In this document: in pieces, positions 12,501 through 61,085 of the stretch
Position numbering within the stretch: the stretch's first letter is position 1
Layout of the letters: each line of letters begins with the position of its first letter
Origin: Paraspadella gotoi
Lineage: Eukaryota; Animalia; Chaetognatha
Length of the DNA stretch: 64,000 nucleotides
Assembly (NCBI GenBank): GCA_051294375.1
Contig: CM119263.1
Location: 30,629,376-30,693,375, forward strand
Direction: 5' to 3'
Notes under the pieces: model-generated
What the model saw: the letters and a program-made list of their open reading frames with translations, nothing else
Databases searched by the model: none
Told to the model about the DNA's origin: nothing
Made by a program: the position numbers and the translations under genes

Positions 12501-15229
12501 CGTCCGAGATAAAATTTAGCGAATAAAAAAGTTGTTATTTTACTCACTGAATAAAAATACTTAAAATACTTACAAAATACATAAAATTGATAAAATTATT
12601 ATTGCGAAAACATTGTTCAATCACATGCACTATATCTAGTGCCTTTTTTTCATTGAAATCGATAGATATTAACTCAAAATATTAGAATTAATTTTTCTTT
12701 TTGATATAATAAGAGAACCAAACTTCCGTCACTTGATGTCGTCAGGTTACTAGTAAATATGCGTTTGAGGATTCCAAATCTGTTTTTAAAATTGACCTAT
12801 GTAGACGCGCATAGACGCGATATGCCTTGAAAGCAAGTTGTTTGGTTTGGTTCCACCTAAATTTTTAGCTTCGGTAATTAAAAAATTGATTTTCTTTGAT
12901 ATCTTTTGAACCCAAAATGCACAGCTTCCACGCTTTTCTTCATTTTTACTCCCATTAGACCAAGCTTTCCCTCTTCCCCCAATCTGCAGCTTACAAGCTA
13001 CCCTCCATTCTTCAACCCATTTAACCAAGCCTTCTCTTCCTTTCCCTCCCTCTTAGCATACAAGCTTCTCCTCTCACATCCCGACCTCCGAATCGACGCG
13101 AAAGACTTTGACGATCGAACGGCGCTGCGTCTAGCGATCGAGTCCTCTAGATCCGAGATGGTTCGAGATCTGGCGGCATCGGGTGCCGCCTTTGTCCAAG
13201 CCGAAACCGCGGTTGAGGGCAAGACTGAGTTTTTGGCTGGAATGGCCAAGACCGAAGTGGAAGGGGCGTTGAAGGCCGGACTGACGGGTGAGACGGGCGC
13301 CTATGGAATTAGAACCAATCTCTGATGGATGTGAAAAAGATCGATCCTGATGTCAAATTCTTTTCTTTTTTTGGGGTAGAATTTTGCGATTCTTGTCTCT
13401 CAGAACTGAGATGTTCAGTGGAGGATTACAAATGCTTCTGCCGTTTGGGATGGGAGGGAAAATTATGCGACAAAGGTTTGGAAATAATATTAAAATTCAA
13501 ATTGAACAGAAAAATAGTTAATTACTAAAAATTTTTAAAAGTCTTGAAACACACTGTGAGTCGTAAAGGCAATAGTTATATTGTCATCATCGGTAAAATC
13601 ATCTTTGGAATATTTTTTTTTCTGCAGACGTGGATGAATGCTTGCAGGTTCCATGTTTGAACCACGGAAATTGCACCAATCTAAAAGGATCTTTTAATTG
13701 TTCTTGCAATGAAGGCTGGAAAGGAAAACTCTGCGCTCAAGGTTTTTTATTAATCGCTACAATGCCAGATTTTCTGATTCTGTCTGATACAATTCTTTTT
13801 TTTCTAGTTAAAATTATATAAAATAAGTAATATTATTAATAATAACAATAATAATAGTAATAATAATGATACTAATAATGATAATAATAAAGTAATAATA
13901 ATAAAACTACGCTTTATTTCAGATATTGACGAGTGTAAATCATCCCCTTGTGTAAATGGAGGATATTGCAATAACACTCAGGGATCCTTTTATTGTTCCT
14001 GCCAAATTGGATGGAAGGGAAAAACTTGTTCAGAAGGTTTACATATTTAATTTAGGTGTCAAAAATATGGGCGTTTTTCAACTTGTTATTTTTTTGTAGA
14101 TATCAATGAGTGCCAGCAAGAGCTTTGCAAAAATGGAGCCACATGCACGAATACTTTAGGCTCATATTTTTGTAGCTGCTCTGACGGTTGGATTGGGAAA
14201 ACTTGTGAAGAGGGTAATGATTGGCAGGCTATTTAACTTCCATTTAGTATCTACTAATACTATGTATAATATTTTTTTTCCTTTATATATCCCTTTATCT
14301 ATCTAAAACTAGGAGAAGCTTTTATTAAACTAAACAACAACAAATGTATAAATTCTTTCAGACATAAATGAATGCCATTCGTCTCCATGTCAAAACGGAG
14401 GAATTTGCAACAATACATTAGGATCCTTTAATTGCTCATGCAAAAAAGGATGGGTAGGAAATACGTGTCTAGATGGTATGTCTTCCTTTGAATTAATCTC
14501 GCATTGAATGTTAAAAGATGAATTTTGATTAGATGTTAATGAATGTCTCGGGACTCCATGCAAAAATGGAGGAGCTTGCAACAACACACATGGATCTTAC
14601 ACCTGTAAATGTACAGATGGCTGGTCGGGGGATGTATGTGAAAACGGTAACTTTGAAATGTTATACCACTTCATTGATAGGGAGGCCGGGTGCTATGGAG
14701 AGAATAAACGAGACAGAGAGAGTTTTGATTGAAAGCTTGCAGGGTCCTGCTATGTCATTATCTTGTAAGTGTGATGAAGGCTTCAACCTCTGTCCAAAGT
14801 CAGGGGCAAGATAGCTTATTTTTTTTTCTGAATGGATAATTCTTATGTTTGTTGTACCAATTTCTTAGATCTATTACAATTTTTTTTTTAAATTTAAAAT
14901 AAACTTTGTCCCACAATTTTCGTAGATGTCGATGAGTGCAAAAGTTTTCCCTGCAAAAATGATGGAACCTGCAGCAATCTCAATGGCACTTACACTTGTA
15001 ATTGCAACGTTGGATGGAGTGGGATGAATTGCCTACAGGGTATCAATTTTACATACTCTTTTTATCCCAAATATCAGAATTGGTGCCAAATTCAAATATA
15101 ATTTTTTATTATTAGATATTGACGAATGCCGATCCAATCCTTGCAAAAATGAAGAGACTTGCGTAAACAACATTGGAAGTTTTACTTGCTCTTGTGGCTC
15201 AGGATGGAAAGACACAAATTGTGAAAAAG
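9577..15229 (+). CDS. CD225/dispanin-anchored protein with ankyrin repeats and EGF/cbEGF repeats (multi-exon; 3' end uncertain)
   Basis: Phase-consistent GT-AG exons: 9577-9606 (ATG); 10625-10841 and 11410-11526 (CD225 pattern [13 protein letters not shown]…G|EEKTARQ…RLAIASF + TM); 11646-11716; 12068-12266 and 13057-13287 (ankyrin: [34 protein letters not shown]); 13380-13475 (atypical EGF); seven 114-bp phase-1 cbEGF exons at 13628-13741, 13923-14036, 14100-14213, 14362-14475, 14533-14646, 14926-15039 and 15116-15229 (D[IV][DN]EC…PC.NGG.C.N..GS[FY].C.C..GW.G..C). A possible terminal exon at 16338-16360 is unverified. Confidence 0.8.
10330..10517. repeat. ~19-20 bp minisatellite (AAAAAGACTGACAGAGTT)
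   Basis: About 9 degenerate tandem units in an intron. Confidence 0.8.
14665..14820 (+). repeat. Short interspersed repeat in an EGF intron; reverse-complement copies at ~21260-21340 and ~21500-21596
   Basis: GAAAGCTTGCAGGGTCCTGCTATGTCATTATCTTGTAAG…GTCCAAAGTCAGGGGCAAGATAGCTTATT matches the nested insert in the 21094-22080 MITE on the opposite strand. Confidence 0.6.
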
Positions 15230-15619: not shown

Positions 15620-17167
15620 CGACGCAGAGACAGATCACGCTTAATTTCAAGTGCACGAAAAAAAAATTATCGGTTATTGAATTTACATTGTCTAACCATT
15701 TGTTCTAACAAGCCATCCCTTCCTGACAGTTATGCTGGACAAATATATGCAAAATTTGATTCGGCTAGAATGATACAGTAAAATACAGTATAAAAGTCGA
15801 AATTTGGACTGAAAAAGTAAATTGTTGTAACTTTTTTTTTAAATACAGTTATGAAAAAAAAACCACATTACCAGTATCTCTTATGTTTCTGCTCTTATAC
15901 GATATCAAAAAGTTTTCTTATTCATACAAGTATTTGTAGTAATAATTTTTTTAAATAACATATATTTTTTTAGTTTTATTTATTTTCAAGCTTACTGCTT
16001 TCATGCATCCCTTGTTCGAGCCCTGAGGTTGTCATGTAGAAAGTGGGATGGACCGGGTAACCCGCCTGTAGGCATGGGCCTACTGCCAGATCCAAAGCTC
16101 TGGACTACATGAACATGCTGTCTCGCTGTCTCCACGAGGTGACACCGCTGCGGGTGTGGCGCCCTGTACAACCAGCCTCTTCAATGTTTTATTTAAGCAT
16201 TTTTTTTCAACGAATCATTAATAATTTGTAATTTTGGTTATGAAATCAATCACTTCTAACTTCTAATGATGCATAACTATAACAAAAATTTTTAAATAAC
16301 TAACTAATGCTATAATAAATTTTTTTATTCCCTTCAGAGTACCATCATCAAATTGATTAACTTTATGTGAAGAAAACAAACAAATAACAAGAATTAACAG
16401 AAATAAATATGTTATGATAACAGCCGGGTGCGGTCACCCGAGGACGGTCTCGCTTTGCCAACGCAGAGAGAAGTCGTTAGAACTGTGGACGGAACTCAAC
16501 ACTTAGGATGGTGCGTTCCCGATGGGATTGGCTGAACGATGTGAGGCGGTGTGAATATACCACCACAATATTTACTTTTCACTTTTCATATCATTTCAAG
16601 AGCTTTAATATATCAACGTTGAATGTCCTTTGGTATTGAAGCCAAGCGGGAATCTTTTTTCGTATTTCCCAGCAGGAAAACGCTTGACTTTTTTATGGCA
16701 GAATACTTGTTCTCCGTAACCCATTTCACCAATACACGGTCATTGATGATGATGGTCTATTACAATGAACAAGTTCAAATATAAATTAAAAAAAATTATT
16801 TTGTAATTCAAGTATCATAATTCATTTACATATTTTGTACTATTCCCAGGTAAAAAATTATTTACTAATGGGTCTGAAATATTGCTCTTTTTCTGTAGAT
16901 AATGAATATCTATTGTTAAAGCTCATTATGTACATTCGTAAGGTAACCAAGGCTCTTAACATAACGCTACTATAATTTTTTGTAAACATTTTTCTGGACT
17001 TGCCCTTCTTGTGGGCGGTTGACACTCATGGAGACAGTACCTTAGATCTCCGAGTACCAAACAACAACTATAGCTAAAAGATTATGAATCAAATATGGCG
17101 ACGAGTGAAGTAAAAATGATCATAAGTAGGCTGGGAAGCAAATTAAGCGTGATATGTCTCTGCGTCT
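15620..17167. mobile_element. Non-autonomous TIR element (TA-flanked); its right ~430 bp recur at 49474-49900
   Basis: TIRs CGACGCAGAGACAGATCACGCTTAATT / AATTAAGCGTGATATGTCTCTGCGTC, flanked by TA. 16742-17167 is near-identical to 49474-49900. Confidence 0.6.
16032..16112 (+). ncRNA. Twister ribozyme (type P5 permutation, minimal P1), in a partial solo LTR (16004-16183) of retrozyme family 2
   Basis: P5 TCATGTAG/CTACATGA; AAA; P2' G(T)GG; GA; T1' TGG; ACCGGG; UAA (predicted cleavage U16058|A16059); P2 CCC; T2 GC; P3 GTAGGC/GCCTAC; P4 CCAGA/TCTGG with loop T-CCA-AAGC. All twister core positions are present. Confidence 0.85.
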
Positions 17168-21100: not shown

Positions 21101-24100
21101 TAGTGAAAGTTACATACGAAAATTCTAAAAGTCAATTATGAACAACATACCATAGTGAACATTAATTTGTAAAAAAAATTAATTTTATGTTTTTTAATAT
21201 ATTTATGCTATTTATGAAATTAGTACAACCAATATAAAAATTATCCATTCATTTAATAAATAAGCTATCTTGCCCCTGACTCTCTCACAGTCTCGTTTAT
21301 TCACTCCCAGAGTACCTGGCTTCCCTATCAATGAAGTTAAAAATATTTCAAAGAATGTTTCAATTGTATGAAAAGACCACTCCCTTAAGTATTAGATCGG
21401 GGAATACTTAGTGTACTCCGCACTAGCATCAAAATACAAGGAGCTGAATTTTATGAAATTGGTACAACCAATATAAAAATTATCCTTTCATTTAATAAAT
21501 AAGCTATCTTGCCCCTGACTTTGGACAGGCTTTGGTGGTTTAAGGCCTCCATCACTCTTACAAGATAATGACATAGCAGGTCCCTGCAAGCTTTCCTGCA
21601 TGCTATCCTTATAAAATCGAAAAATTTCAAAATAGACTTTTCTCTTAATTCTATAGCAGATTTGAATTCCTCGTCAAAAGTTGATAAAAGAAAATATAAA
21701 TAATTTTAAAAATTCTTTCATTAAGTGGGTTAAAAATTAATAAAACTATATTTAGTATATAAAAAGTTAATTTTCAGCTTAAAATATAGATTTTTTTAAT
21801 TTTTGACCCATTTAATGAAGGAATTTTTCAAAAAGAGTTATATTTTCTTTTTATCAACTTTTTACGACGAATCCAAATCTGCAAAAAAATCTTAGAAAGA
21901 ACTGTTTGGAAATTTTAACAATTTATTGGTTTAGTACTAGTATAAATATGGCCTACTGCGTAAATTGTAAAATTTATTAAAAATTTTTTTATTACATAAA
22001 TGTTCATAAGTATAATACTGTTCGTTCCTCACTTTTAGAATTTTAATTAAAGTTAAATTTAGAAATTTTACTACGCTTTAATGACTACAATGACTTTCTT
22101 AGCCCATATATTTCTGACACGCACTGAATCGGAATTTTGTTTTTTATTCTTTATAGATTTAGGATTTCTCTAAGGCGGCGCTAGCAATCCTTTAGATTTT
22201 GTATTTTTTCCTTTCTTAACAATGAGAAACCAACTATATGTAAGTTATGAGCATTTTTAACGTAAGTGGGACAGACCAATGGACGGACTAATGGACCAAC
22301 CGACGGACACACCGACTGAAAAGTCACATATAGAAAAAAACTAACCTTTATTCCTAACTTAAGATGGAATGCGGCGTTCTGAGAAATTAAAGCAAACAAA
22401 ATGAAAAGAGTTTTCAACTAATTTTTAGATCTTCCTTTTGATTCGTCTCACTGCAAGTTGTTTTGTTGGTTTTACTCAATATGATAAGAACAACTGATTT
22501 TAATCGAGTTTTACATCACGTTGTAACGAAGCAGTTAACAAAATATATTTTTGTGGTCCTACCTATTTATCTATTAGAATTGTGGTTAAAGATATCTATT
22601 GAACCAATTTTGCAGTGTGTTTTGCGTGGTTTATTTGACTGTTACATCTTCGAGCAGATTTTATTTTATAATAAGAAATGATTATGGATTAAGCGATACT
22701 TATTTGTTGACAATGTTAGTGAGACACATTTTGGGCCTTACGTTAATCATTTTAAACCTGACTTTGATATGGACTTTATTGCCTTACGTTGAATGTCGAG
22801 AGAGTTTCCCAGCGAAGAAGTTAAACTTTCTTGATTGTTATGATTATGAATGCACTTTTGTGAATTTTAATTTGGATAAATGTTTATATCGTACATGGTT
22901 AAGTTTAGTGAAAAACGAGTTCGCCCAGTTTCCATTTGTTAATACAAACAATTCCACCAAAAAATTGGTTGATATAACAAAATATACTATGGGTTTTCCA
23001 AATATCATTTATCATTCAGCACTTTTCACAGTTTGGTGCATGATACATCGTGTTGGTATGAATAAAGTTTATTCTATGAACTTTCTTGAAAATATTTATT
23101 TTCTTTTTATTAGCTGCTTTTGGTTATGCGGTTTATACTTTGTATATGGCTGGTTTAATATGTTCTTACTTTTACAATAAAAACCAAGAAAATATGTCAT
23201 ATGGTGACAGATTAAGCATACTTGATTCTTATTTCGACATAAATAATTTTGAAGAAATACAAAAGAAAATATTCCGGAAGTATTTTCTCTTAAAGGTTTA
23301 AAAGAAATTTTGTTAATGAAATATAAATGAAGCATAAAATAGATATTTAATGAATATGAAATTGGTTCAACAAGTATAAAATGATACAAACCAAGTGAAA
23401 ATATTTGATAAGCTATTCTTAAATAAATCTTCATCATCACTGGTTAATAAGGCGTAGTGAAAGTTAAATACAAAAATTCTAAAAGTCAATTATGAACAAC
23501 ATACCATCAGTGAACATTAATTTTGTAAAAAAAAAATAATTTTATTTTTTTAATTTTCCGCAGTAGGCCATATTTAATATAGTACTATCTTATAAAACGN
23601 NNNNNNNNNNNNNNNNNNNNNNNNAAATATAGTTTTTTTTAATTTTTGACCCACTTAATGAAGGGATTTTTTAAAAAGAGTTTTCATGGTATAAAAAGCG
23701 CTGATGAAGGCTCGAATTTATGAGCCGAAACATGTCTGCTAAGAAGTAAGATACAAAAATAATATCGTTGTACAAATTAATTCAAAACTTTGTTAAAAAG
23801 AGTTATATTTCTTTTTATCAACTTTTTATGACGAATCCAAATCTGCAAAAAAATTTTAGAAAAAACTGTTTTGAAATTTTAACATTTATTGGTGTAGTAC
23901 TAGTATAAATATGGCCTTCTGCGTAAATTGTAAAATTTATTAAAAATTTTTTTATTACATAAATGTTCATAAGTATAATACTGTTCGTTCCTCACTTTTA
24001 GAATTTTAATTAAAGTTAAATTTAGAAATTTTACTACGCTTTAATGACTACAATGACTTTCTTAGCCCATATATTTCTGACACGCACTGAATCGGAATTT

Positions 24101-27100: not shown

Positions 27101-30100
27101 TTTCAAGAGAACATTGTTCGAATGTATTTAATGTTGCTCCAAATTATTTACGAAAAAAATTACTTTTGAATCATTATGAAATATTGAAAAGTGCTAGATA
27201 TAAATTTCAAAAGTCATTGAACGTAATTTCACCTTATGGTTTAAAAAAAGCAATTGATATTTACGGCTCAAGTCAACCCACTCGCTTCCCTTTTGAATAT
27301 TGTACAATTCCGGCGGAAATAGAAGGTTATGTTTGTGAATTTGATAAAATAAAATATTATCATATATACATACATTAAAGCCATCTATCTGTATTGACGC
27401 TCGTGGCGGCATTTGGGCATGACTGTAGGGAGAGATAAGAGGGTCGAAGTCCGACGGCCGTGGATTCGATATCGGCGTCTTAATTTGCCCCGTTTCTCGA
27501 GATAAATATGATATTAAGGATTATAAGGACGATGAAGAAGAGGGAAAAAGGGTTGAGGCTATCTGTATTGTTTTAATAAACGTTTGAAAATTAAATTCAA
27601 ATAATCTTCAGTTTTGAAACCACGATCGTTGCCATCTTGAAAAAACAGCCAGAAAGTTGAGCCACCTCGAACACTAGCTATAAAATATATTAACAAAGAT
27701 ATTATACATCTTGTAGTCGGTCAATGAATAAGTTCACCCCGCCTATAAGAACTCCTTTGCTCATGACCATAAGGTAACAGGATTGATCTCCAATGGTACC
27801 TACCTTGCTGGAAGCGTAAGGATGGCCTTAAACCGCCTTGGGGGCCAGGAAAACCCTCAAGCCTGGTTCCAAGCCCAGGACCCATTCCACGGCTGCTAGA
27901 GAGGGTTAAAGAAGTTACGGATAGCACTCTTCAGTCCATTTAGCGCCTTATATACAATCTTATACATTTTAAAAATCTAAAAAATATTATAGTATTGTAA
28001 GCAAATTCACAAATTTAATCAGAAAAACATTCTTGGACTGATGAATCAACTTTCTTTATTGCTTGGAATTATTTTCTGGCTTTATTTGCTTTTTGCCTGT
28101 GGGTTATGATATTCTTTATAAGTTACGTTCCAGTATCTTCCTATGACATATTTATTGTAAGTTATAACCACTACAACCAGGTATATTTTAAGAAAATATA
28201 TTAGAAACGAAAAAAAATTGTTTCAACAACGATATATTTTTTAGAAAAACACATGTTTCAACTCTTTTTGCTGAAGAAGTCTCACAAAGAGAGTCTGTTT
28301 TTCTAAAAATATATAGTAAGGCGTAGTGAAAGTTACATACGAAAATTCTAAAAGTCAATTATGAACAACATACCATCAGTGAATATTAATTTGTAAAAAA
28401 ATTAATTTTATGTTTTTAAATTTTCGCAGTAGGCTATATTTATATATAGTACTATCCTTATAAAATCGAAAAATTTCAAAATAGGCTTTTCTTAATTTTG
28501 ATTGCAGATTTGAATTCCTCGTCAAAATTGATAAAAGAAAATATAAATCATTTTTAAAAATTCTTTCAATAAGTGGGTTAAAAATTAAAAAAACTATATT
28601 TAATATATAAAAAATTAATTTTCAGCTTAAAATATAGCTTTTTCTAATTTTTGACCCACTTAATGAAAGAATTTTTCAAAAAGAGTTATATTTCTTTTTA
28701 TCAACTTTTTATGACGAATCCAAATCTGCAAAAATATTTTAGAAAAAACTGTTTTGAAATTTTAACATTTATTGGTTTGGTACTAGTATAAATATGGCCT
28801 ACTGCGTAAATTAAAAAATTTATTATAAATTTTTTTATTACATAAATGTTCATTAGTATAATGTTGTTCATTCCTTACTTTTAGAATTTTAATTAAAGTT
28901 AAATTTAGAAATTTTACTATGCCTTAATATATAGTTCTTGAAAAAAACATTTTTTTTTTCGCTTTTAATTCTCAAACACATCGAAAAAAATGTTTAACAC
29001 CAAATAAAATATATTAAAATAAAACTTTTTAATGTAGAACTAATGGAATTATAGTCTTGCGCAAAATAAAGGACACTCATAAATCTTAAATTAAGGTTGT
29101 CTTACGTATAACATTTTTAAATGGGAATCCATACTAGAGCGTTGAAAAATAACAAAATATAACAAATCAAGTGAGGTACATAGCTATTTTAGTGTAATGT
29201 AGTCTGTAGAATTCGATGGTGATGACCATTTTTTTGTATAATTTTATCTTTATTGTCGGAAATGACGGTTTTTAATGTATATAAAATTGTTAGAAAATAA
29301 CAAAACTATTATAAGTTATGATAAATCATATTATTTAAATTTTATAAAATTTATATGAGCTTTTGAAATATAAAAATAAAGACTTATAAAAATATTTTGG
29401 TAAGTTTATTTCTAAATTTTATGTTTTATAAAAAGTTAGTTAACTATATTTATTAATAATTATGAGTAAAAATTGGGCTAAAGTTAAAAAATAATAATTT
29501 CAAAATTGTTTTCATGGATTTGCATTCTTTGCAAAAAGTTGATATAAAAAATATAATTTTTATATCAAAATTATGTCATTAAGTTGGTCAAAATTCAGAA
29601 AAACTATAATTTTAAGCCAAAAATTGAAAAATTAAACAAAAATAATAAATTTTAATATTTTTAACCTACTTAATGAAATAATTTTTTTAAATGGATTATA
29701 CTTTCTTATATCAACTTTTTGTAAGGAATTCAAATCCGGTTTTAAAATTGTAAAATTTTATTTTTTTACTTTAGCTTATTTTTATTATTATTTATTAATA
29801 AATATAGCTTACAAACTATTAATGAAATATAAAATTTGTAAATAAACTTACCAAAATATTTATATTGGTCTTTATTTTCATATTATGTCAGTTAAATATG
29901 GCTTTTATAAAATCTTAATAATTTGAGTTTCTTATACTTTACAATGTTTGCTCCATATATGCTGCAAAAATCGCCATTTCCGACAAAGAAGATGAGACTA
30001 TACAAAAAATGGTTATCATCATCGAATTCTACAGACTTTATTACACTAAAATAACTATTTACCTCACTTGATTTGTTATATTTCGTTATTTTTCAACGCC

Positions 30101-33100
30101 CTAATCCATACGTATAAGTTAAAAGAAACTTGGTTCAGCCATTTAAGAGAAGTGGACAAAATCAAAATAAGAAATACTTATGGTGGACTAAAATCCACCA
30201 ACTGTTCATTAGCGGCTATTGGTGCCGGAGCCAAGTCGTTTGCCTCCCAATCAAAAGGTCCGGGGTTGTAGCCCGGTGGTCGCCTGATCCGAAGCTCGGC
30301 GACTGCTTATATCGAACGGTTCTGTCACTTACACATAACAATTCTTACTGTTTTTTCAATAATAAATTTTCCAATTTACGCAGTAAGTCATATTAAGTTG
30401 ATCAAATATTAACAAGTTTGAGCAAACAATGTCGGATCTGCCTACGAAAATTAATTATTTAATTAATTAATCGATTAATTAATTAATTAATTTTAATATT
30501 TAATAATTAATTATAAATTTATATACAGCTTATCATCATCGATGTCCTTAAAATAAAGTAAATGTGACTTATATTTTTTCCATTTAAACTCATTTCCACT
30601 GGCACAATTCCGTCAAAACTTTATATCTAGCTTCTTCACAAACTTTCCTTCCCGCTCACAAAATTTCATCTCAATCTATTATGGGTTAAAATAATTAAAA
30701 AGAGTCAAGTAAATGTGACTTATATTTTTTTCATTTAAACTCATTTCCACTCGTACCAAAACTTTATATCAAGCTTCGTCACACATTTTCCTACCCACAC
30801 ACAAAATTTGAACTCAATCTATCCATCCAATTATGATTAATTAGAGTATTTATTGGTTAAAATAAGTAAAAAGATTTTAGTAAATGCGACTTATGTTTTT
30901 TCCATTTAAACTCATATCCACTCACATGATTCTATCGACACTTTATATCCAGCTTCAACACACATGTTCCTACCCATACACAAAATTTCATTCCGATCCA
31001 ACCAGCCAATCACGAGTTATTGGGGCTTTTTGCTAAGATGGACGGATGGACAGATTGATTGACTGATTAATTAATTAGTGATTAATTAATTGACTAATTG
31101 ATTAATTAACTGATTAATTATTTGATTTATTAATACATCCTGCATATACATTTAATATAAAAGGAAAAAAATCATAATCAATTAGTGAAACAGGTTTTTT
31201 GTTTTTTTTCCATTTAAACTCATTTCCACTCAAACGATTCCATCGAAACTTGGTTTCCTGTTCAATCACACACTTTCCTACTCACATACAAAATTCCAGG
31301 TCAATCGCCCCATCCACTTGTAAGCAATTGGTGTTCAAATAGTGAATTATATTTTTTTGTTTTTCCATTTAAACTCATTTCCACTCGGACGAATCCATCG
31401 AAACTTTATATCCAGCTCAATCACACACTTCCCTACCCACACACAAAATTTCATTCAATCCATCCATCCATCCATTGGATTGCATCCATCCATCCATCCA
31501 TCCATCCAATCACGAGTAATTGGTGTTTTTTGCTAAGGTGGGATGAACGGACGGACGGATGGACGGACGGACAGACAGACGGACATCATTTTTTTGGCAT
31601 AATTTATCATAATTCGATGTTCTGACATGATATAAGTTAGTGCCCGACAATATTGAGGGGGCGGACCGACGGACCAACTAAGTGAATTATAGAGTCGGGA
31701 TCTGCTGATAAGCAGATCCGACTAAAAAAACCTATATTTTAAGCTGAAATTTAAAATTTTATATATTAAATATAGTTTTTTAAATTTTTCACCCACTTAA
31801 TGAAAGAATTTTTAAAAATGATTTATATTTTCACATATCATCTTTTGACGAGGAATTCAAATCTGCAATTAAAATTAAGAAAATCCTATTTTGAAATTTT
31901 TCAATTTGATAAGGATAGTACTATTGATAAATATAGCCTACTGCGAAAATTGAAGAACATAAAATTATTTTTTTTTACAAATTAATGTTCACTGATGGTA
32001 TGTTGTTCATAATTGACATTTAGAATTTTTGTATGTAACTTTCACTATTAGATCTACCTAAAATCGCTCACTAAATCAGCTTTAACAACTTCTTTTATTT
32101 TGTTTCTTATTGTCTTAAGNNNNNNNNNNNNNNNNNNNNNNNNNTGATTTGTTATATTTCGTTATTTTTCAACGCCCTAATCCATACGTATAAGTTAAAA
32201 GAAACTTGGTTCAGCCATTTAAGAGAAGTGGACAAAATCAAAATAAGAAATACTTATGGTGGACTAAAATCCACCAACTGTTCATTAGCGGCTATTGGTG
32301 CCGGAGCCAAGTCGTTTGCCTCCCAATCAAAAGGTCCGGGGTTGTAGCCCGGTGGTCGCCTGATCCGAAGCTCGGCGACTGCTTATATCGAACGGTTCTG
32401 TCACTTACACATAACAATTCTTACTGTTTTTTCAATAATAAATTTTCCAATTTACGCAGTAAGTCATATTAAGTTGATCAAATATTAACAAGTTTGAGCA
32501 AACAATGTCGGATCTGCCTACGAAAATTAATTATTTAATTAATTAATCGATTAATTAATTAATTAATTTTAATTTTAATAATTAATTATAAATTTATATA
32601 CAGCTTATCATCATCGATGTCCTTAAAATAAAGTAAATGTGACTTATATTTTTTCCATTTAAACTCATTTCCACTGGCACAATTCCGTCAAAACTTTATA
32701 TCTAGCTTCTTCACAAACTTTCCTTCCCGCTCACAAATTTCATCTCAATCTATTATGGGTTAAAATAATTAAAAAGAGTCAAGTAAATGTGACTTATATT
32801 TTTTCATTTAAACTCATTTCCACTCGTACCAAAACTTTATATCAAGCTTCGTCACACATTTTCCTACCCACACACAAAATTTGAACTCAATCTATCCATC
32901 CAATTATGATTAATTAGAGTATTTATTGGTTAAAATAAGTAAAAGATTTTAGTAAATGCGACTTAATGTTTTTTCCATTTAAACTCATATCCACTCACAT
33001 GATTCTATCGACACTTTATATCCAGCTTCAACACACATGTTCCTACCATACACAAAATTTCATTCCGATCCACCAGCCAATCACGAGTTATTGGGGCTTT

Positions 33101-53278: not shown

Positions 53279-53875
53279 TGAAGAGGCTGGTTGTACAGGG
53301 CGCCACACCCGCAGCGGTGTCACCTCGTGGCGACAGCGAGACAGCATGTTCATATAGTCCAGAGCTTTGGATCTGGCAGTAGGCGTTTGCCTACAGTCGG
53401 GTTACCCGGTCCATCCCACTTTCTACATGTCAACCTCAGGGCTCAAACCAGGGACACACATTGGGATGGTGCATTAGTCCACTGAGCCACTGCGAAAGAA
53501 AAAGCTTTAATCCATCTGTGGTGATAGGGCCACCAGACAGCAGCCCCCAGGACTGTCACATATGAGAGTATGAAGTAGGGGATGAAACGCATGTCTCTCC
53601 GCTGAACCTCTCTTCATTCTGGTGGCCTTGCTTTGAGTGGCAGCTGCGTAGCTCAAACCACATCAAGGGCAGAGGAATATTATCATGCCCGGTTTGCATG
53701 TTTAGATCACGTCGGGCTCACCATTGAAGAGGCTGGTTTTACAGGGCGCCACACCCGCAGCGCTCAGGGCTCGAATCAGGGACGCACATTGGGATGGTGC
53801 ATAAGTCCACTGAGCCACTGAGGCGCAGCGAAAGAAACAGCTTTAATCCATCTGTGGTGATAGGACCACCAGACA
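53279..53875 (-). mobile_element. Twister-ribozyme LTR retrozyme/TRIM, family 2
   Basis: On the minus strand: 5' LTR 53875-53725 (TG…CA, internally deleted), 18-nt PBS TGGTGAGCCCGACGTGAT (53723-53706; tRNA-Trp-like), ~165-bp non-coding interior, G-run PPT, 3' LTR 53539-53279 containing the tRNA-like module and twister. No clean TSD. Confidence 0.8.
53351..53429 (-). ncRNA. Twister ribozyme (type P5), T2 mutated (GC->GA)
   Basis: Reverse complement: CATGTAG-AAA-GTGG-GA-TGG-ACCGGG-TAA-CCC-GAC-T-GTAGGC-AAAC-GCCTAC-T-G-CCAGA-TCCAAAGC-TCTGG-A-CTATATG. Confidence 0.75.
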
Positions 53876-56553: not shown

Positions 56554-57677
56554 TAATGTTTTGCGTTTTATTAGCATTTTATATACATTAAAAATCGTCA
56601 TTTCCATCAAGAAATATGAAACTATCCAAGAAAATGGTTATAACCATCGAATTTTTCAGACCTGATTACAGTAAAATAATTATGAATGAAATTTATTATC
56701 TTATATCTTGTTATCTTTAAACGTTCTATTGATCATAATCATCACGCTTTCCCTTTAAAATCTATTGAAAACAAAAATTTCAACTTGAAAAAAAAAATTG
56801 GTTGATTTATTATAATTATCATAGTAAATAAGTTAGGATTTACATAATAATTTTTTATAATAAAAAATCAACAAACTGACTTTTTATCGCCCAATTTTTT
56901 ATTTTTATATCAGATAACTTCACAATCAGCGTTAAAAATTAACTTAAAATTTTGAAGAAATAACTACGCGCCTGAGAGTAACTGTGATTATTAAAGCGTA
57001 GCAAAAATATTAAAATCAAGTAGAATCAAAATTCGAATAATAGATCATGAACATGCTTGTACCTGTAAACATTTCAGCAGATCCCGACTAGTGTTCCGTT
57101 AACCGTTAATTTTTGAGGAACTTCGCTTAACCGTTAAAACTAACGTTTTTAACGGTTAACCGTTAAAATCGGTTAATTTTATAATTAAACATTAAATTTA
57201 AAATATTAATATTTAAAACTTACTAAAGTATTTACTGGTATTTTCTCCTTAACTCCGGCTACTGAATCGTCTTTATCTTTTATTTCAGATAGATGAGGTA
57301 CACATTATAGTTGATAAATGAGAAAATTGGTTTGAAAAAACAGCATTATAATAATTTTTTTTGCCTCATAGCTTAATAAAAATATGAAAAAATACTGAAA
57401 GAAAAAGCACAATGTAATTTTAATTCTGTATATTTTGTTTTCTCTTTCTCTCTTTTTCTTTCTTTCTTTCATTTTCGCTTTTTCTTTTTCTCTTCCTCAT
57501 TATTTTTATAGTTGTTAGTATTTCATTGAAAGCATGTTTTCTGTTGTTAGTCTTTCAATAACCCATGACTATAAAATAATAATATGAATATTAGGTTAAG
57601 ACTTCTTTCAAGTTATCTTAACATGTGAAGAGACAGTAATTATTGATAAGTGTTAATGACAGAACCGTTCAATATAA

Positions 57678-57750
57678 GCAGTTCTGAGCTTCGGATCAGG
57701 CTGTAACACCATGTTACAGGCGGGTTAAGCGCCCCGTCCCTCTTAACTGC
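57678..57750 (-). ncRNA. Twister ribozyme (type P5) in the 3' LTR; one G missing in P4
   Basis: Same sequence as 58086-58159 except TCAG for TCAGG. Confidence 0.75.
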
Positions 57751-58085
57751 AGACGACCACGGCTAGAACCCCGGACCTTTGGTGGGAGGCGAATGACTTG
57801 CCTCGGGCACCAATGGCCGCTGATGAAGGTTGGTGGATTTTAGTCCACCATACATCCCCCTCCCATAGGGAGAAGTCTGTTGCGTCTCTTCAGTGAATTG
57901 TTGTTGGTGGAAAGTTCGTCACCAAGTTGAGGCATGTCGCCTGATGTGTTGTGGGCGGAAAGTGCATCGCCAGGTTGGGCATGTCGCCTGAAAGTGTTGT
58001 TGTTGCTGTTGTGTTCGGAGTCGGGCTCACCAATGAAGAGACAGTGATTATTGATATATGTTAATGACAGAACCGTTCAATATAA

Positions 58086-58159
58086 GCAGTTCCTGAGCTT
58101 CGGATCAGGCTGTAACACCATGTTACAGGCGGGTTAAGCGCCCCGTCCCTCTTAACTGC
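58086..58159 (-). ncRNA. Twister ribozyme (type P5), intact, in the 5' LTR
   Basis: Reverse complement: GCAGT-TAA-G(A)GG-GA-CGG-GGCGCT-TAA-CCC-GC-C-TGTAACA-TGG-TGTTACA-G-CCTGA-TCCGAAGC-TCAGG-A-ACTGC; T1 pseudoknot CGG/CCG, T2 GC/GC. Confidence 0.88.
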
Positions 58160-61085
58160 CAGACGCACACCGGGCTAGAACCCCGGACCTTTGGGTTGGG
58201 AGAAATGACTTGCCTCCGGCACCAATGGCCGCTGATGAACGGTTGGTGGATTTTAGTCCACCATACATGGAATAAAAACCCATTGTTTGTAAACAAATAA
58301 ACTTTGTTTTCTTTTAATTATGAATATCAATTTATTAATTGAATGGTTGAATGATCGATTGATCAAAAGACTTATTAATTAATAAATATTTTTTTAAATT
58401 TTATTAAAGTAAAGTATATCATCATTGAAGGATAGTTTTAGTTTGCCTTAATGTCTTTTCAAAGATTCATTCCTTCTGTTGTTCATTTTTTAAATGTTTT
58501 TCTAATAATTTTTTTATTTTAGTTTTTTTAATTTTTTCATTCATTCGGCTTTATTTATTTACTTCTTTGTTCGTTTTAAAAATTGAAAGAAAAATCTAAA
58601 AAAAGTAAAATAAGAAAGATCTTTTTTTATTTAGCAAAATAGAATATTATTGCATGTAAAAATTTGATTAGCAAAAAAATATATGTAGATGCATATTATA
58701 TTTCAAAATATTCTTTGATGTAAATGTATAAAATTAGCTGAAAGTAAAAACGAAAACAATTGGGAGAAAGTAAAAAAATTACCGGAAGGGCAGAAAAAAA
58801 TGATAATAGATTAGGAAAGAAAAAGATTAAAAGGGTTGAAAATAACAAAGAAAAAAAAGGGGAAAATATAAAACAGAGAGAGGGGCAAAAATAAAATGAG
58901 AAAGGGAGAGGAGAATAAGGAAAAAAAATTTTTTTCTTAAAAAATCAAAGTTTTCATAACAAAAAATAACAAAAATCATACTTGAAAATTAACCGAATTT
59001 AACCGTTAAAATAAATATATTAACGGTTAAGTTAAAATTATTTTTAACCGTTAATAACCGTTAACTGTTTACGGTTATTGGAACTCTAATCCCGACTCTA
59101 TAATTCACTTTGTCGGTCCGTCGGGCCGCCCCCTCAATATTGTCGGGCAATCACTTACATCATGTCAGAACATCAAATAATGATAAATTATGCAAAAAAA
59201 TGATTTCCGTCCGTCTGTCTGTCTGTCCGTCCGTCCCACCTTAGCAAAAAGCTCCAATAACTCGTGATTGGGTGGTTAGATTGGAATGAAATTTTGTGTG
59301 TGGGTAGGAAAGTGTGTGATGAAGTTGGATATAAAGTTTCGATGGAATCGTGCGAGTGGAAATGAGTTTAAATGGAAAAAACATAAGTAGCATTTACTAA
59401 AATATTTTTACTTATTTTAACCAATAATTACTCTAATTAATTATAATTGGATGAATAGATTGAGTTGAAATTTTGTGTGTGGGTAGGAAAGTTTGTGCCG
59501 AAGCTTGATATAAAGTTTTGATGGAAACGTGCGAGTGGAAATGAGTTTCAATGAAAAAATATGAGTCACATTTACTTCAATCTTTTTACTTGTTTTAATC
59601 CATAATTACTCGAATTAATTATAATTGAATTAATAGATTGAGATGAAATTTTGTGTGCGGGTAGGAAAGTATGTGAAGAAACTAGATATAAAGTTTTGAT
59701 GGAATCGTGCCAGTGGAAATGAGTTTAAATAGAAAAAAAAATTAAATTTACTTGAATCTTTATTATTTATGATTACTAATAAATGTTTTAATAAATAAAT
59801 TAATTAATTAATGTGAAAAAATGATGCAATTTAAAAAAAATTTGCAAGTTAAAAAAATTATGCAAATGAAAAAAAATGATGTAGGTTAAAAAAATGATGC
59901 AAGATAAAAAAATGATGCAAGTTGAAAAAATGATGCAAATTGTAAAAATGATTCAAATTGAAAAAATGATGTGAGTTGAAAAAATGATGTGAGTGGAAAA
60001 AAGTATTAGGAGTTGAAAAAATGATGCAAGTTATTTAAAAAAATATTGTGATTTATCATCTGATTAGCTGATTACCGCTTAATTATCGTAGGCAGATCCG
60101 ACATTGTTTGCTCAAACTTGTTATTTTTCAATTTTTGCATACGCTCTTATTTTTACATATTACTTACCATAAAAAAATGTTAAAATTTTCAAATGTTTTT
60201 TCTTATTTTTAAAAGCAGATTCGAATTCCTCATGAAAAGTTGATAAAAGGAAACTCTTAGTAAGCCTATTCCATTAAGTGGTCCCAAATTCCTAAAAAAA
60301 CTATTATTATTAACCTATAATTAAATTTTATTATATAAAAAATATAGTTTTTTAGTCGGATCTGCTTATCAGCAGATCCCGACTCTATAACTCACTTTGT
60401 CGGTCCGTCGTCCGCCCCCTCAATATTGTCCGGCACACACTTATACATGTCAGAACATCGAATTATGATAAATTATGCAAAAAAAAACGATGTCCGTCTG
60501 TCCGTCGTCGTCCGTCCGTCCGTCCGTCCGTCGTCCTCCGTCCCGTCCGTCCCACCTTAGCAAAAAACTCACAATTACTCGTGATTGGATGGATGGATTG
60601 GTATGAAATTTTGTGTGTGGGTAGGAAACAGTGTGATTGAGATGGATATGAAGTTTCGAGGGAAATCGTGCGAGTGAAATTGGTTTAAATGGAAAAAACA
60701 AAAAAAATATATTTCACTATTTCAACGCCAATTGCTCATGAGTGGATAAGGCAATTGACTTGAAATTTTGTATGATGGTAGGGAAGTGTGAGATTGAGCG
60801 GATATAAAGTTTCGATGGAATCGTGCGAGTTAAAATGGAAAAAAACAAAAGTCTATTACTTGAAGTATTTTTACTTAAATTTACTCATCAATTATTATGT
60901 TTATTAAAAATTGGATATGATGATCGAAATGAATTGTTGTGTGTGGGTAGGAAAGTATGTGATAAAGCTGGATATAAATTTTTTGATGGAATCGTAGGAG
61001 TGGAAAAGAGTTCAAATTAGAAAACCAAAAGACACATTTATTTGAATTTTTAAAGTTTCTCTCTCTCTATCTCTCTCGATGATTG

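What the first reader, a model, noticed from the sequence alone, without database searches (positions are those of the whole stretch)
16032..16112. Twisters with P1 reduced to a 6-nt near-palindrome, suggesting dimer-dependent cleavage
In both families only 6 nt (ACCGGG; GGCGCT) link T1' to the UAA cleavage site, too short for a stable P1 hairpin but self-complementary. Established: twister can cleave without a stable P1, and minimal hammerheads in Penelope elements use palindromic loops to form active dimers between tandem copies. Inference: the two LTR twisters in one transcript may pair through these palindromes, coupling cleavage to full-length two-LTR RNA.
Basis: inference. Interest (0 to 1): 0.7.

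Follow-up and report, generated by a model that had tools for sequence, protein, structure and literature searches.

The report
Palindrome-paired twister ribozymes in animal retroelements
Small repeated elements in this animal genome carry a twister-type self-cutting RNA fold in which one helix is replaced by a six-letter self-complementary stretch, which likely lets two copies pair and help each other cut, although neither pairing nor cutting has been tested.

Summary
16032-16112 is a type-P5 twister fold whose P1 hairpin is replaced by a 6-nt linker (ACCGGG). The window holds four such families (ACCGGG, GGCGCT, AGGCCT, TGGCCT). A metagenome contig with a terminal repeat gives a fifth (CAATTG). 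In all 7 aligned copies linker positions 2-5 and 3-4 are Watson-Crick complementary, each with three pair types. Neighbouring bases 3-4 cannot pair within one strand, so the pattern points to pairing between two RNA copies. Controls: 4 of 116 chance matches are palindromic; 26 of 26 intact phage P5 twisters have a 15-26-nt P1 hairpin instead. Family B is a 640-nt LTR element (PBS-like site, PPT, 4-bp TSD) with a twister in each LTR. Best model: a strand-swapped double twister cuts out a 409-nt unit. Against strict dependence: P1 is dispensable in published twisters, the hatchet ribozyme's palindrome is not needed for catalysis, and in the full element the swapped fold wins by only 2.4 kcal/mol. 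The flagged copy is solo and has no partner in cis. Cleavage is untested. Earlier scan notes report a similar fold in Naiad elements of other genomes.

The parts
16032..16112 (+). Family A type-P5 twister fold (copy A1) in a solo, 5'-shortened repeat 16008-16183
16052..16057 (+). 6-nt linker ACCGGG in place of P1; central CCGG palindrome; predicted cut between U16058 and A16059
   Evidence: cut site by homology to known twisters
53279..53873 (-). Family A two-LTR element: 5' LTR 53873-53725 with the twister deleted, PBS-like site from 53723, 3' LTR 53537-53279 with twister A2 (linker 53410-05; one T2 pair broken)
57626..58265 (-). Family B 640-nt non-coding LTR element: LTRs 58265-58034 and 57852-57626, PBS-like site from 58032, purine tract 57863-53, 4-bp target duplication CATG
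   Evidence: loose contig ends pile up at 58265, 58034 and 57626 in three runs
58085..58160 (-). Twister B1 (5' LTR), linker GGCGCT 58142-37, predicted cut after U58136
57678..57750 (-). Twister B2 (3' LTR), linker GGCGCT 57733-28, predicted cut after U57727; 409 nt from B1
21504..21568 (-). Family C twister without P3, linker AGGCCT 21548-43 (perfect palindrome); T2 changed on both sides (AC/GU)
27808..27884 (+). Family D twister, linker TGGCCT 27823-28; T1 changed on both sides (UCC/GGA); A at the general-base G position; repeat ends in the same CTCTTCA as A and B
30179..30358 (+). Family B solo LTR with the 5' half of the twister deleted (second copy 32255-32434)
14731..14867 (+). Decayed family C copy in an intron between EGF-like exons; T1', UAA, P2 and T2 damaged, linker AGGCTT

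Best explanation
These are type-P5 twister folds in the terminal repeats of small non-coding retroelements, with the P1 hairpin replaced by a 6-nt palindromic linker that likely pairs with the linker of a second copy, giving a predicted strand-swapped double twister that would cut more efficiently than a single copy. In the swapped form the 5' half of copy 1 (P5 strand, P2', GA, T1') completes the 3' half of copy 2 and vice versa, and the two linkers form a shared 4-6-bp P1 between two active sites; in a two-LTR transcript these pairings are nested and so topologically allowed (inferred). In family B the two cuts would release a 409-nt unit that could be ligated to a circle and reverse-transcribed from the PBS, as plant LTR retrozymes are (inferred by analogy). 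A circle or a solo LTR holds one twister and would cut poorly, which would protect the circle and host transcripts (inferred). Shown: fold, linker, covariation, LTR anatomy. Not shown: transcription, cleavage, dimer formation.
For: Linker pairs 2-5 and 3-4 are Watson-Crick in 7 of 7 rows, three pair types each, all changes double-sided; pair 1-6 holds in 4 of 7. For linker plus P2 pairs 0 of 500 shuffles reached the covariation score 0.667, best slid control 0.302 (rows are related, so this is not a probability). Background: 4 of 116 distinct chance matches and 7% of window hexamers (20% if the core is all G/C) have a palindromic core. Two new core types (GGCC, AATT) were found after the hypothesis was set, roughly 0.005-0.014 by chance (my arithmetic). 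All 26 parses of phage P5 twisters with a 4-bp P2 have 15-26-nt hairpin linkers; 11 other parses with weaker P2 were set aside. Isolated cores: swapped dimer 6.8-13.1 kcal/mol below two monomers at 1 M, observed linkers in the best 0.3-4.2% of 4096 hexamers. Precedent: Penelope hammerheads with a palindromic short stem III likely cleave as dimers (PMC6765202, passages); axolotl retrozyme dimers cleave much better than monomers (PMC7229834, passages).
Against: Twisters lacking P1 cleave at almost wild-type rate (PMC5408937) and P1 length did not affect cleavage in over 2600 candidates (PMC11662667); those constructs may have open P1 ends rather than a closed 6-nt loop, which I could not check. 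The hatchet ribozyme dimerises through a palindrome that catalysis does not need (PMC7357161). In the whole B element the swapped fold is -187.7 against -185.3 kcal/mol for two monomers, within model error; both lie 22-24 kcal/mol above the unconstrained fold, in which the linkers do not pair (probability 0; pseudoknots are not scored). Only five families, four from one genome and probably related. L004's AU-rich linker gives a weak duplex (-3.0 kcal/mol). The flagged copy has no partner in cis.
Confidence: 0.5

Rival explanations
1. The twister cuts well as a monomer with a 6-nt loop; the palindrome is kept for RNA-RNA pairing of another purpose, such as dimerising the element's RNA for packaging or strand transfer, like the 6-nt palindromic dimer-initiation loop of retroviral RNA or the hatchet palindrome.
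For: P1 dispensable; hatchet and HIV-1 precedents (PMC7357161); LTR anatomy of family B.
Against: The palindrome sits exactly at the P1 position with a fixed length of 6 in all five families, including L004, in which I saw no LTR features.
Confidence: 0.25
2. The linker is the shrunken remnant of a P1 hairpin (one or two pairs closing a tiny loop) in a monomeric ribozyme, and its symmetry is a by-product or chance.
For: Loss of a hairpin's loop leaves a palindrome; pair 1-6 can close a tetraloop in 4 of 7 rows; few independent families.
Against: Adjacent bases 3-4 stay complementary through three states, which an intramolecular loop does not need; the outer pair, which a monomer would use, is the least conserved.
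Confidence: 0.15
3. The palindrome acts after the cut: it ends up at the 3' end of the released unit and helps ligation, circle formation or priming.
For: The predicted 409-nt unit ends with the linker plus U; L004 has a 123-nt terminal repeat, as circular templates give.
Against: No circular junction or RNA end data; metazoan retrozyme circles are thought to be closed by a protein ligase (PMC7229834, abstract).
Confidence: 0.1

Closest known systems
Type-P5 twister ribozyme (Rfam RF02684)
   Same: Strand order, UAA cut site, G-A of L1, loop L4 with both pseudoknots, P2, P4, P5.
   Different: P1 hairpin replaced by a 6-nt palindromic linker; P2 has 3 pairs and a bulge; all copies score below the gathering threshold or not at all.
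Minimal hammerheads of Penelope-like elements and amphibian retrozymes that cleave as dimers (PMC6765202, PMC7229834)
   Same: A helix next to the cut site is reduced to a palindromic stub, in tandem or repeated retroelement ends.
   Different: Different ribozyme class; dimer dependence tested there, not here.
Plant LTR retrozymes (PMC4918200)
   Same: Non-coding element with a ribozyme in each LTR, PBS, PPT, 4-bp TSD, solo LTRs.
   Different: Twister instead of type III hammerhead; animal host; shorter unit (409 nt against about 600-1000); metazoan retrozymes were described as lacking LTR, PBS and PPT.
Schistosoma twister variants at Perere-3 5' ends (PMC8501958)
   Same: Twister in an animal retroelement with a weakened P1; similar P3 letters.
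   Different: Non-LTR host element, P1 completed by target DNA-derived flanks, no palindromic closed linker in the rows I saw.
Hatchet ribozyme dimer (PMC7357161)
   Same: Palindrome-driven strand swap in a natural ribozyme.
   Different: There the palindrome is not needed for catalysis and is not at the cut site.

Membership tests
Twister ribozyme, type P5 | N-A-A at the cut site and G-A on the other strand of L1 | tested here: met
   A1, A2, B1, B2, C, L004 have both; D has A for the G
Twister ribozyme, type P5 | Pseudoknots T1 and T2 | tested here: met
   T1 CCA/UGG, CCG/CGG, UCC/GGA; T2 GC/GC and AC/GU; one T2 pair broken in A2
Twister ribozyme, type P5 | Stems P2, P4 and closing P5 | tested here: met
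   P4 4-5 bp, P5 6-9 bp (3 in D), P2 3 bp with a bulge in 7 of 7
Twister ribozyme, type P5 | Intramolecular P1 hairpin | tested here: not met
   6-nt linker only; 26 of 26 intact phage parses have 15-26-nt hairpins
Twister ribozyme, type P5 | Rfam RF02684 gathering score 37.6 | tested here: not met
   best 25.8 bits (C), 24.2 (L004); A, B, D not listed at E<=10
Twister ribozyme, type P5 | Site-specific self-cleavage | not testable with these tools
   needs an in vitro assay
LTR retrozyme / TRIM | Two LTRs round a short non-coding core, 4-bp TSD, fixed ends | tested here: met
   family B: 232 and 227 nt LTRs, TSD CATG, contig ends pile up at the LTR ends; family A flanks match 3 of 4
LTR retrozyme / TRIM | PBS and PPT | tested here: inconclusive
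   TGG-starting site one base after the 5' LTR in A and B and a purine tract before B's 3' LTR; the match to tRNA-Trp is recalled, and a pattern search for such a tRNA found nothing
LTR retrozyme / TRIM | Hammerhead ribozyme in the LTR | tested here: not met
   twister fold instead; no hammerhead listed by Rfam
LTR retrozyme / TRIM | Circular RNA intermediate | not testable with these tools
   only assembled contigs could be laid
Penelope-like (Naiad) pseudo-LTR | Partial tandem repeats, variable 5' ends, linked RT and GIY-YIG gene | tested here: inconclusive
   B has fixed ends and a TSD, which argues against; C is arranged like a partial tandem; ORFs were not scanned against protein families

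The most novel reading that the evidence does not exclude
An obligate-dimer twister subclass, convergent with the double hammerhead, that works as a copy counter: only RNA carrying two terminal repeats (or a multimer of a circle) is cut, while circles and the many solo LTRs stay uncut; it equips the first animal LTR retrozymes and is shared with an unrelated circular replicon.
Probability: 0.28. Interest if true: 0.85.

Novelty: new variant of a known kind. Interest (0 to 1): 0.66.

Why it matters
If right, twister has reached the same two-copy switch as the hammerhead, which suggests a general rule for ribozymes in retroelements: cut the precursor, spare the product and the host. It also points to a twister subclass that Rfam misses, and to animal retrozymes with true LTR features, which the papers I read describe only in plants. 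The test is cheap, and a ribozyme that needs two copies would be a useful logic part.

Tried and rejected
No whole genome was held, so no genome-wide count. Pattern scans for more short-linker twisters: metagenomes 23 loci plus 1 viral locus gave one convincing case (L004); L016 (T1 and 4-bp P4, 3-nt linker) had no Rfam twister hit and was rejected. Prokaryote genomes 0 of 33 and viral contigs 0 of 1 and 0 of 27 passed T1 plus P4; the 120 loci were chance matches, used as a control. Sequencing runs: no RNA holder listed; X9 is only guessed to be RNA, and contigs cannot show ends or circles. One search listed variants only in P3, but apparently only for places at least 31 bases from an end, so it does not test family A's linker. 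One search showed no variant in B's linker among the 40 rows shown, but 63 rows were hidden. Unconstrained folding does not recover the twister. The 409-nt circle folds only mildly better than shuffles (z -2.2), L004 not at all (z -1.2). A search for a tRNA matching the PBS found nothing; no tRNA gene in the window. Deletions of the twister in several copies lie at short repeated letters and were read as ordinary decay. Roth 2014, Lunse 2017 and Kosutic 2015 were not held; the supplement of PMC11662667, which lists the tested twisters and might hold short-linker P5 forms, could not be read.

Full report
Setting. The window is eukaryotic: EGF-like exons with introns at 13.6-15.2 kb and A+T-rich repeats, read as an animal. 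No whole genome was held.

Observation. The flagged stretch folds as a type-P5 twister: P5, bulged P2, G-A, T1', a 6-nt linker ACCGGG (16052-57), UAA, T2, P3, P4 and loop UCCAAAGC. Family B repeats this with GGCGCT, twice, 409 nt apart. Rfam lists neither. Scans that did not ask for a palindrome found two more families in the window: C (AGGCCT; T2 changed on both sides) and D (TGGCCT; T1 changed on both sides; general-base G replaced by A, a change that only partly lowers cleavage in PMC11662667). A metagenome scan with linker length free from 3 to 14 returned 23 loci, of which one was a convincing twister: L004, with the same bulged P2 and the perfect palindrome CAATTG, on a 1097-nt contig with a 123-nt terminal repeat, as a circular template would give.

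Is it more than chance? In 7 aligned rows linker pairs 2-5 and 3-4 are Watson-Crick in all, with three pair types each; pair 1-6 holds in 4 of 7. Palindromic cores occur in 4 of 116 chance matches and 7% of window hexamers, 20% if all G/C. Ordinary P5 twisters from phage contigs are different: 26 of 26 parses with a full P2, out of 37 distinct parses from 46 loci, have 15-26-nt P1 hairpins. The informative point is pair 3-4: adjacent bases cannot pair within a strand, so their covariation is expected from pairing between strands and not from a vestigial hairpin. Limits: five families, four from one genome; a dead family C copy at 14.8 kb has a decayed linker.

The carrier. Family B (58265-57626) has 232- and 227-nt LTRs, a TGG-starting site one base after the 5' LTR, a purine tract and a CATG target duplication. 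Contigs of three runs of the same coded organism break off at the same LTR ends, for example 149 at 58265 and 119 at 57626 in X4, so the family has many insertions with fixed ends. Family A has the same site and LTR end; here one copy is solo (the flagged one) and the other has lost the twister from its 5' LTR. The primer match to tRNA-Trp is recalled and untested. Plant LTR retrozymes have this anatomy with a hammerhead, whereas animal retrozymes are described as lacking LTR, PBS and PPT (PMC4918200, PMC7229834). Family C looks more like a partial tandem.

Mechanism. In a two-LTR transcript the swapped pairings (5' half 1 with 3' half 2, linker with linker, 3' half 1 with 5' half 2) are nested. 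For isolated cores the swapped dimer is 6.8-13.1 kcal/mol below two monomers at 1 M, against 3.1-3.7 without the linker helix. In the whole B element the margin shrinks to 2.4 kcal/mol, and the unconstrained fold pairs the linkers elsewhere; these models ignore the two pseudoknots. Two cuts would release a 409-nt unit. That a one-twister circle or solo LTR would be spared is inference. Against strict dependence: P1-less twisters cut at almost wild-type rate according to PMC5408937, inefficiently according to PMC8501958; P1 flaws were tolerated at large scale; and the hatchet palindrome serves dimerisation, not catalysis. I put linker-mediated swapped dimers that aid cleavage at 0.5, and strict dependence at about 0.28.

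Literature. Searches for twister with retrozyme, Penelope, palindrome and dimer, domain swapping, type P5 and LTR retrotransposons listed no paper on a palindromic-P1 or dimeric natural twister or on twister-bearing LTR elements in animals; the library lacks most subscription papers. Seen as passages: PMC6765202, PMC5408937, PMC7229834, PMC4918200, PMC7357161, PMC10085705, PMC13725137, PMC12542633, PMC8557442, 10.1101/2022.07.19.500677, 10.64898/2026.07.22.740005. Seen as abstract plus named sections: PMC11662667 (section 32; supplement unreadable), PMC8501958 (sections 17, 19). Not read: Roth 2014, Lunse 2017, Kosutic 2015. Earlier AI notes of this scan describe a similar P1-less or palindrome-armed twister in Naiad elements of other genomes; they are unchecked and not counted as support.

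Verdict. A real, more-than-chance feature; a new variant of the twister class in what looks like an animal LTR retrozyme; the dimer mechanism is plausible, cheap to test and unproven. Interest 0.66.

Noticed in passing
window 35.4-43.7 kb (+): A gypsy-like LTR retroelement in several broken frames, with protease-, RT-, RNase H-, integrase- and env-like pieces (labels from recalled motifs, not from a family scan) and a purine tract near 43.62 kb; no shared ends with families A or B were seen.
   Followed up: no
L004:1-1097: Metagenome contig with a 123-nt terminal repeat (974-nt unit), one palindromic-linker twister, longest open frame 129 aa, no second ribozyme found by Rfam.
   Followed up: partly
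window 16030-16105 (records 14, 21, 26): A divergent relative of twister A (14 differences in 76 nt) lies on 2.2-3.6-kb contigs in three runs; in X9 that contig has depth 160 against 2-19 for most other listed contigs.
   Followed up: no
window 30179-30358, 32255-32434, 53762, 21281, 14780-14790: Several copies have lost part or all of the twister core by deletion.
   Followed up: partly
window 30.4-34.1 kb: A 2072-nt near-identical duplication across the N gap at 32120-32144; may be an assembly artefact, so the two solo B LTRs may be one copy.
   Followed up: no
window 13.3-15.2 kb (+): Run of EGF-like exons; ankyrin-like frames at 12.0-13.3 kb (label recalled). Copy A1 lies 0.8 kb downstream on the same strand, the decayed C copy inside an intron.
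   Followed up: partly
L146-L191: 46 phage loci with canonical type-P5 twister patterns, used as control.
   Followed up: yes
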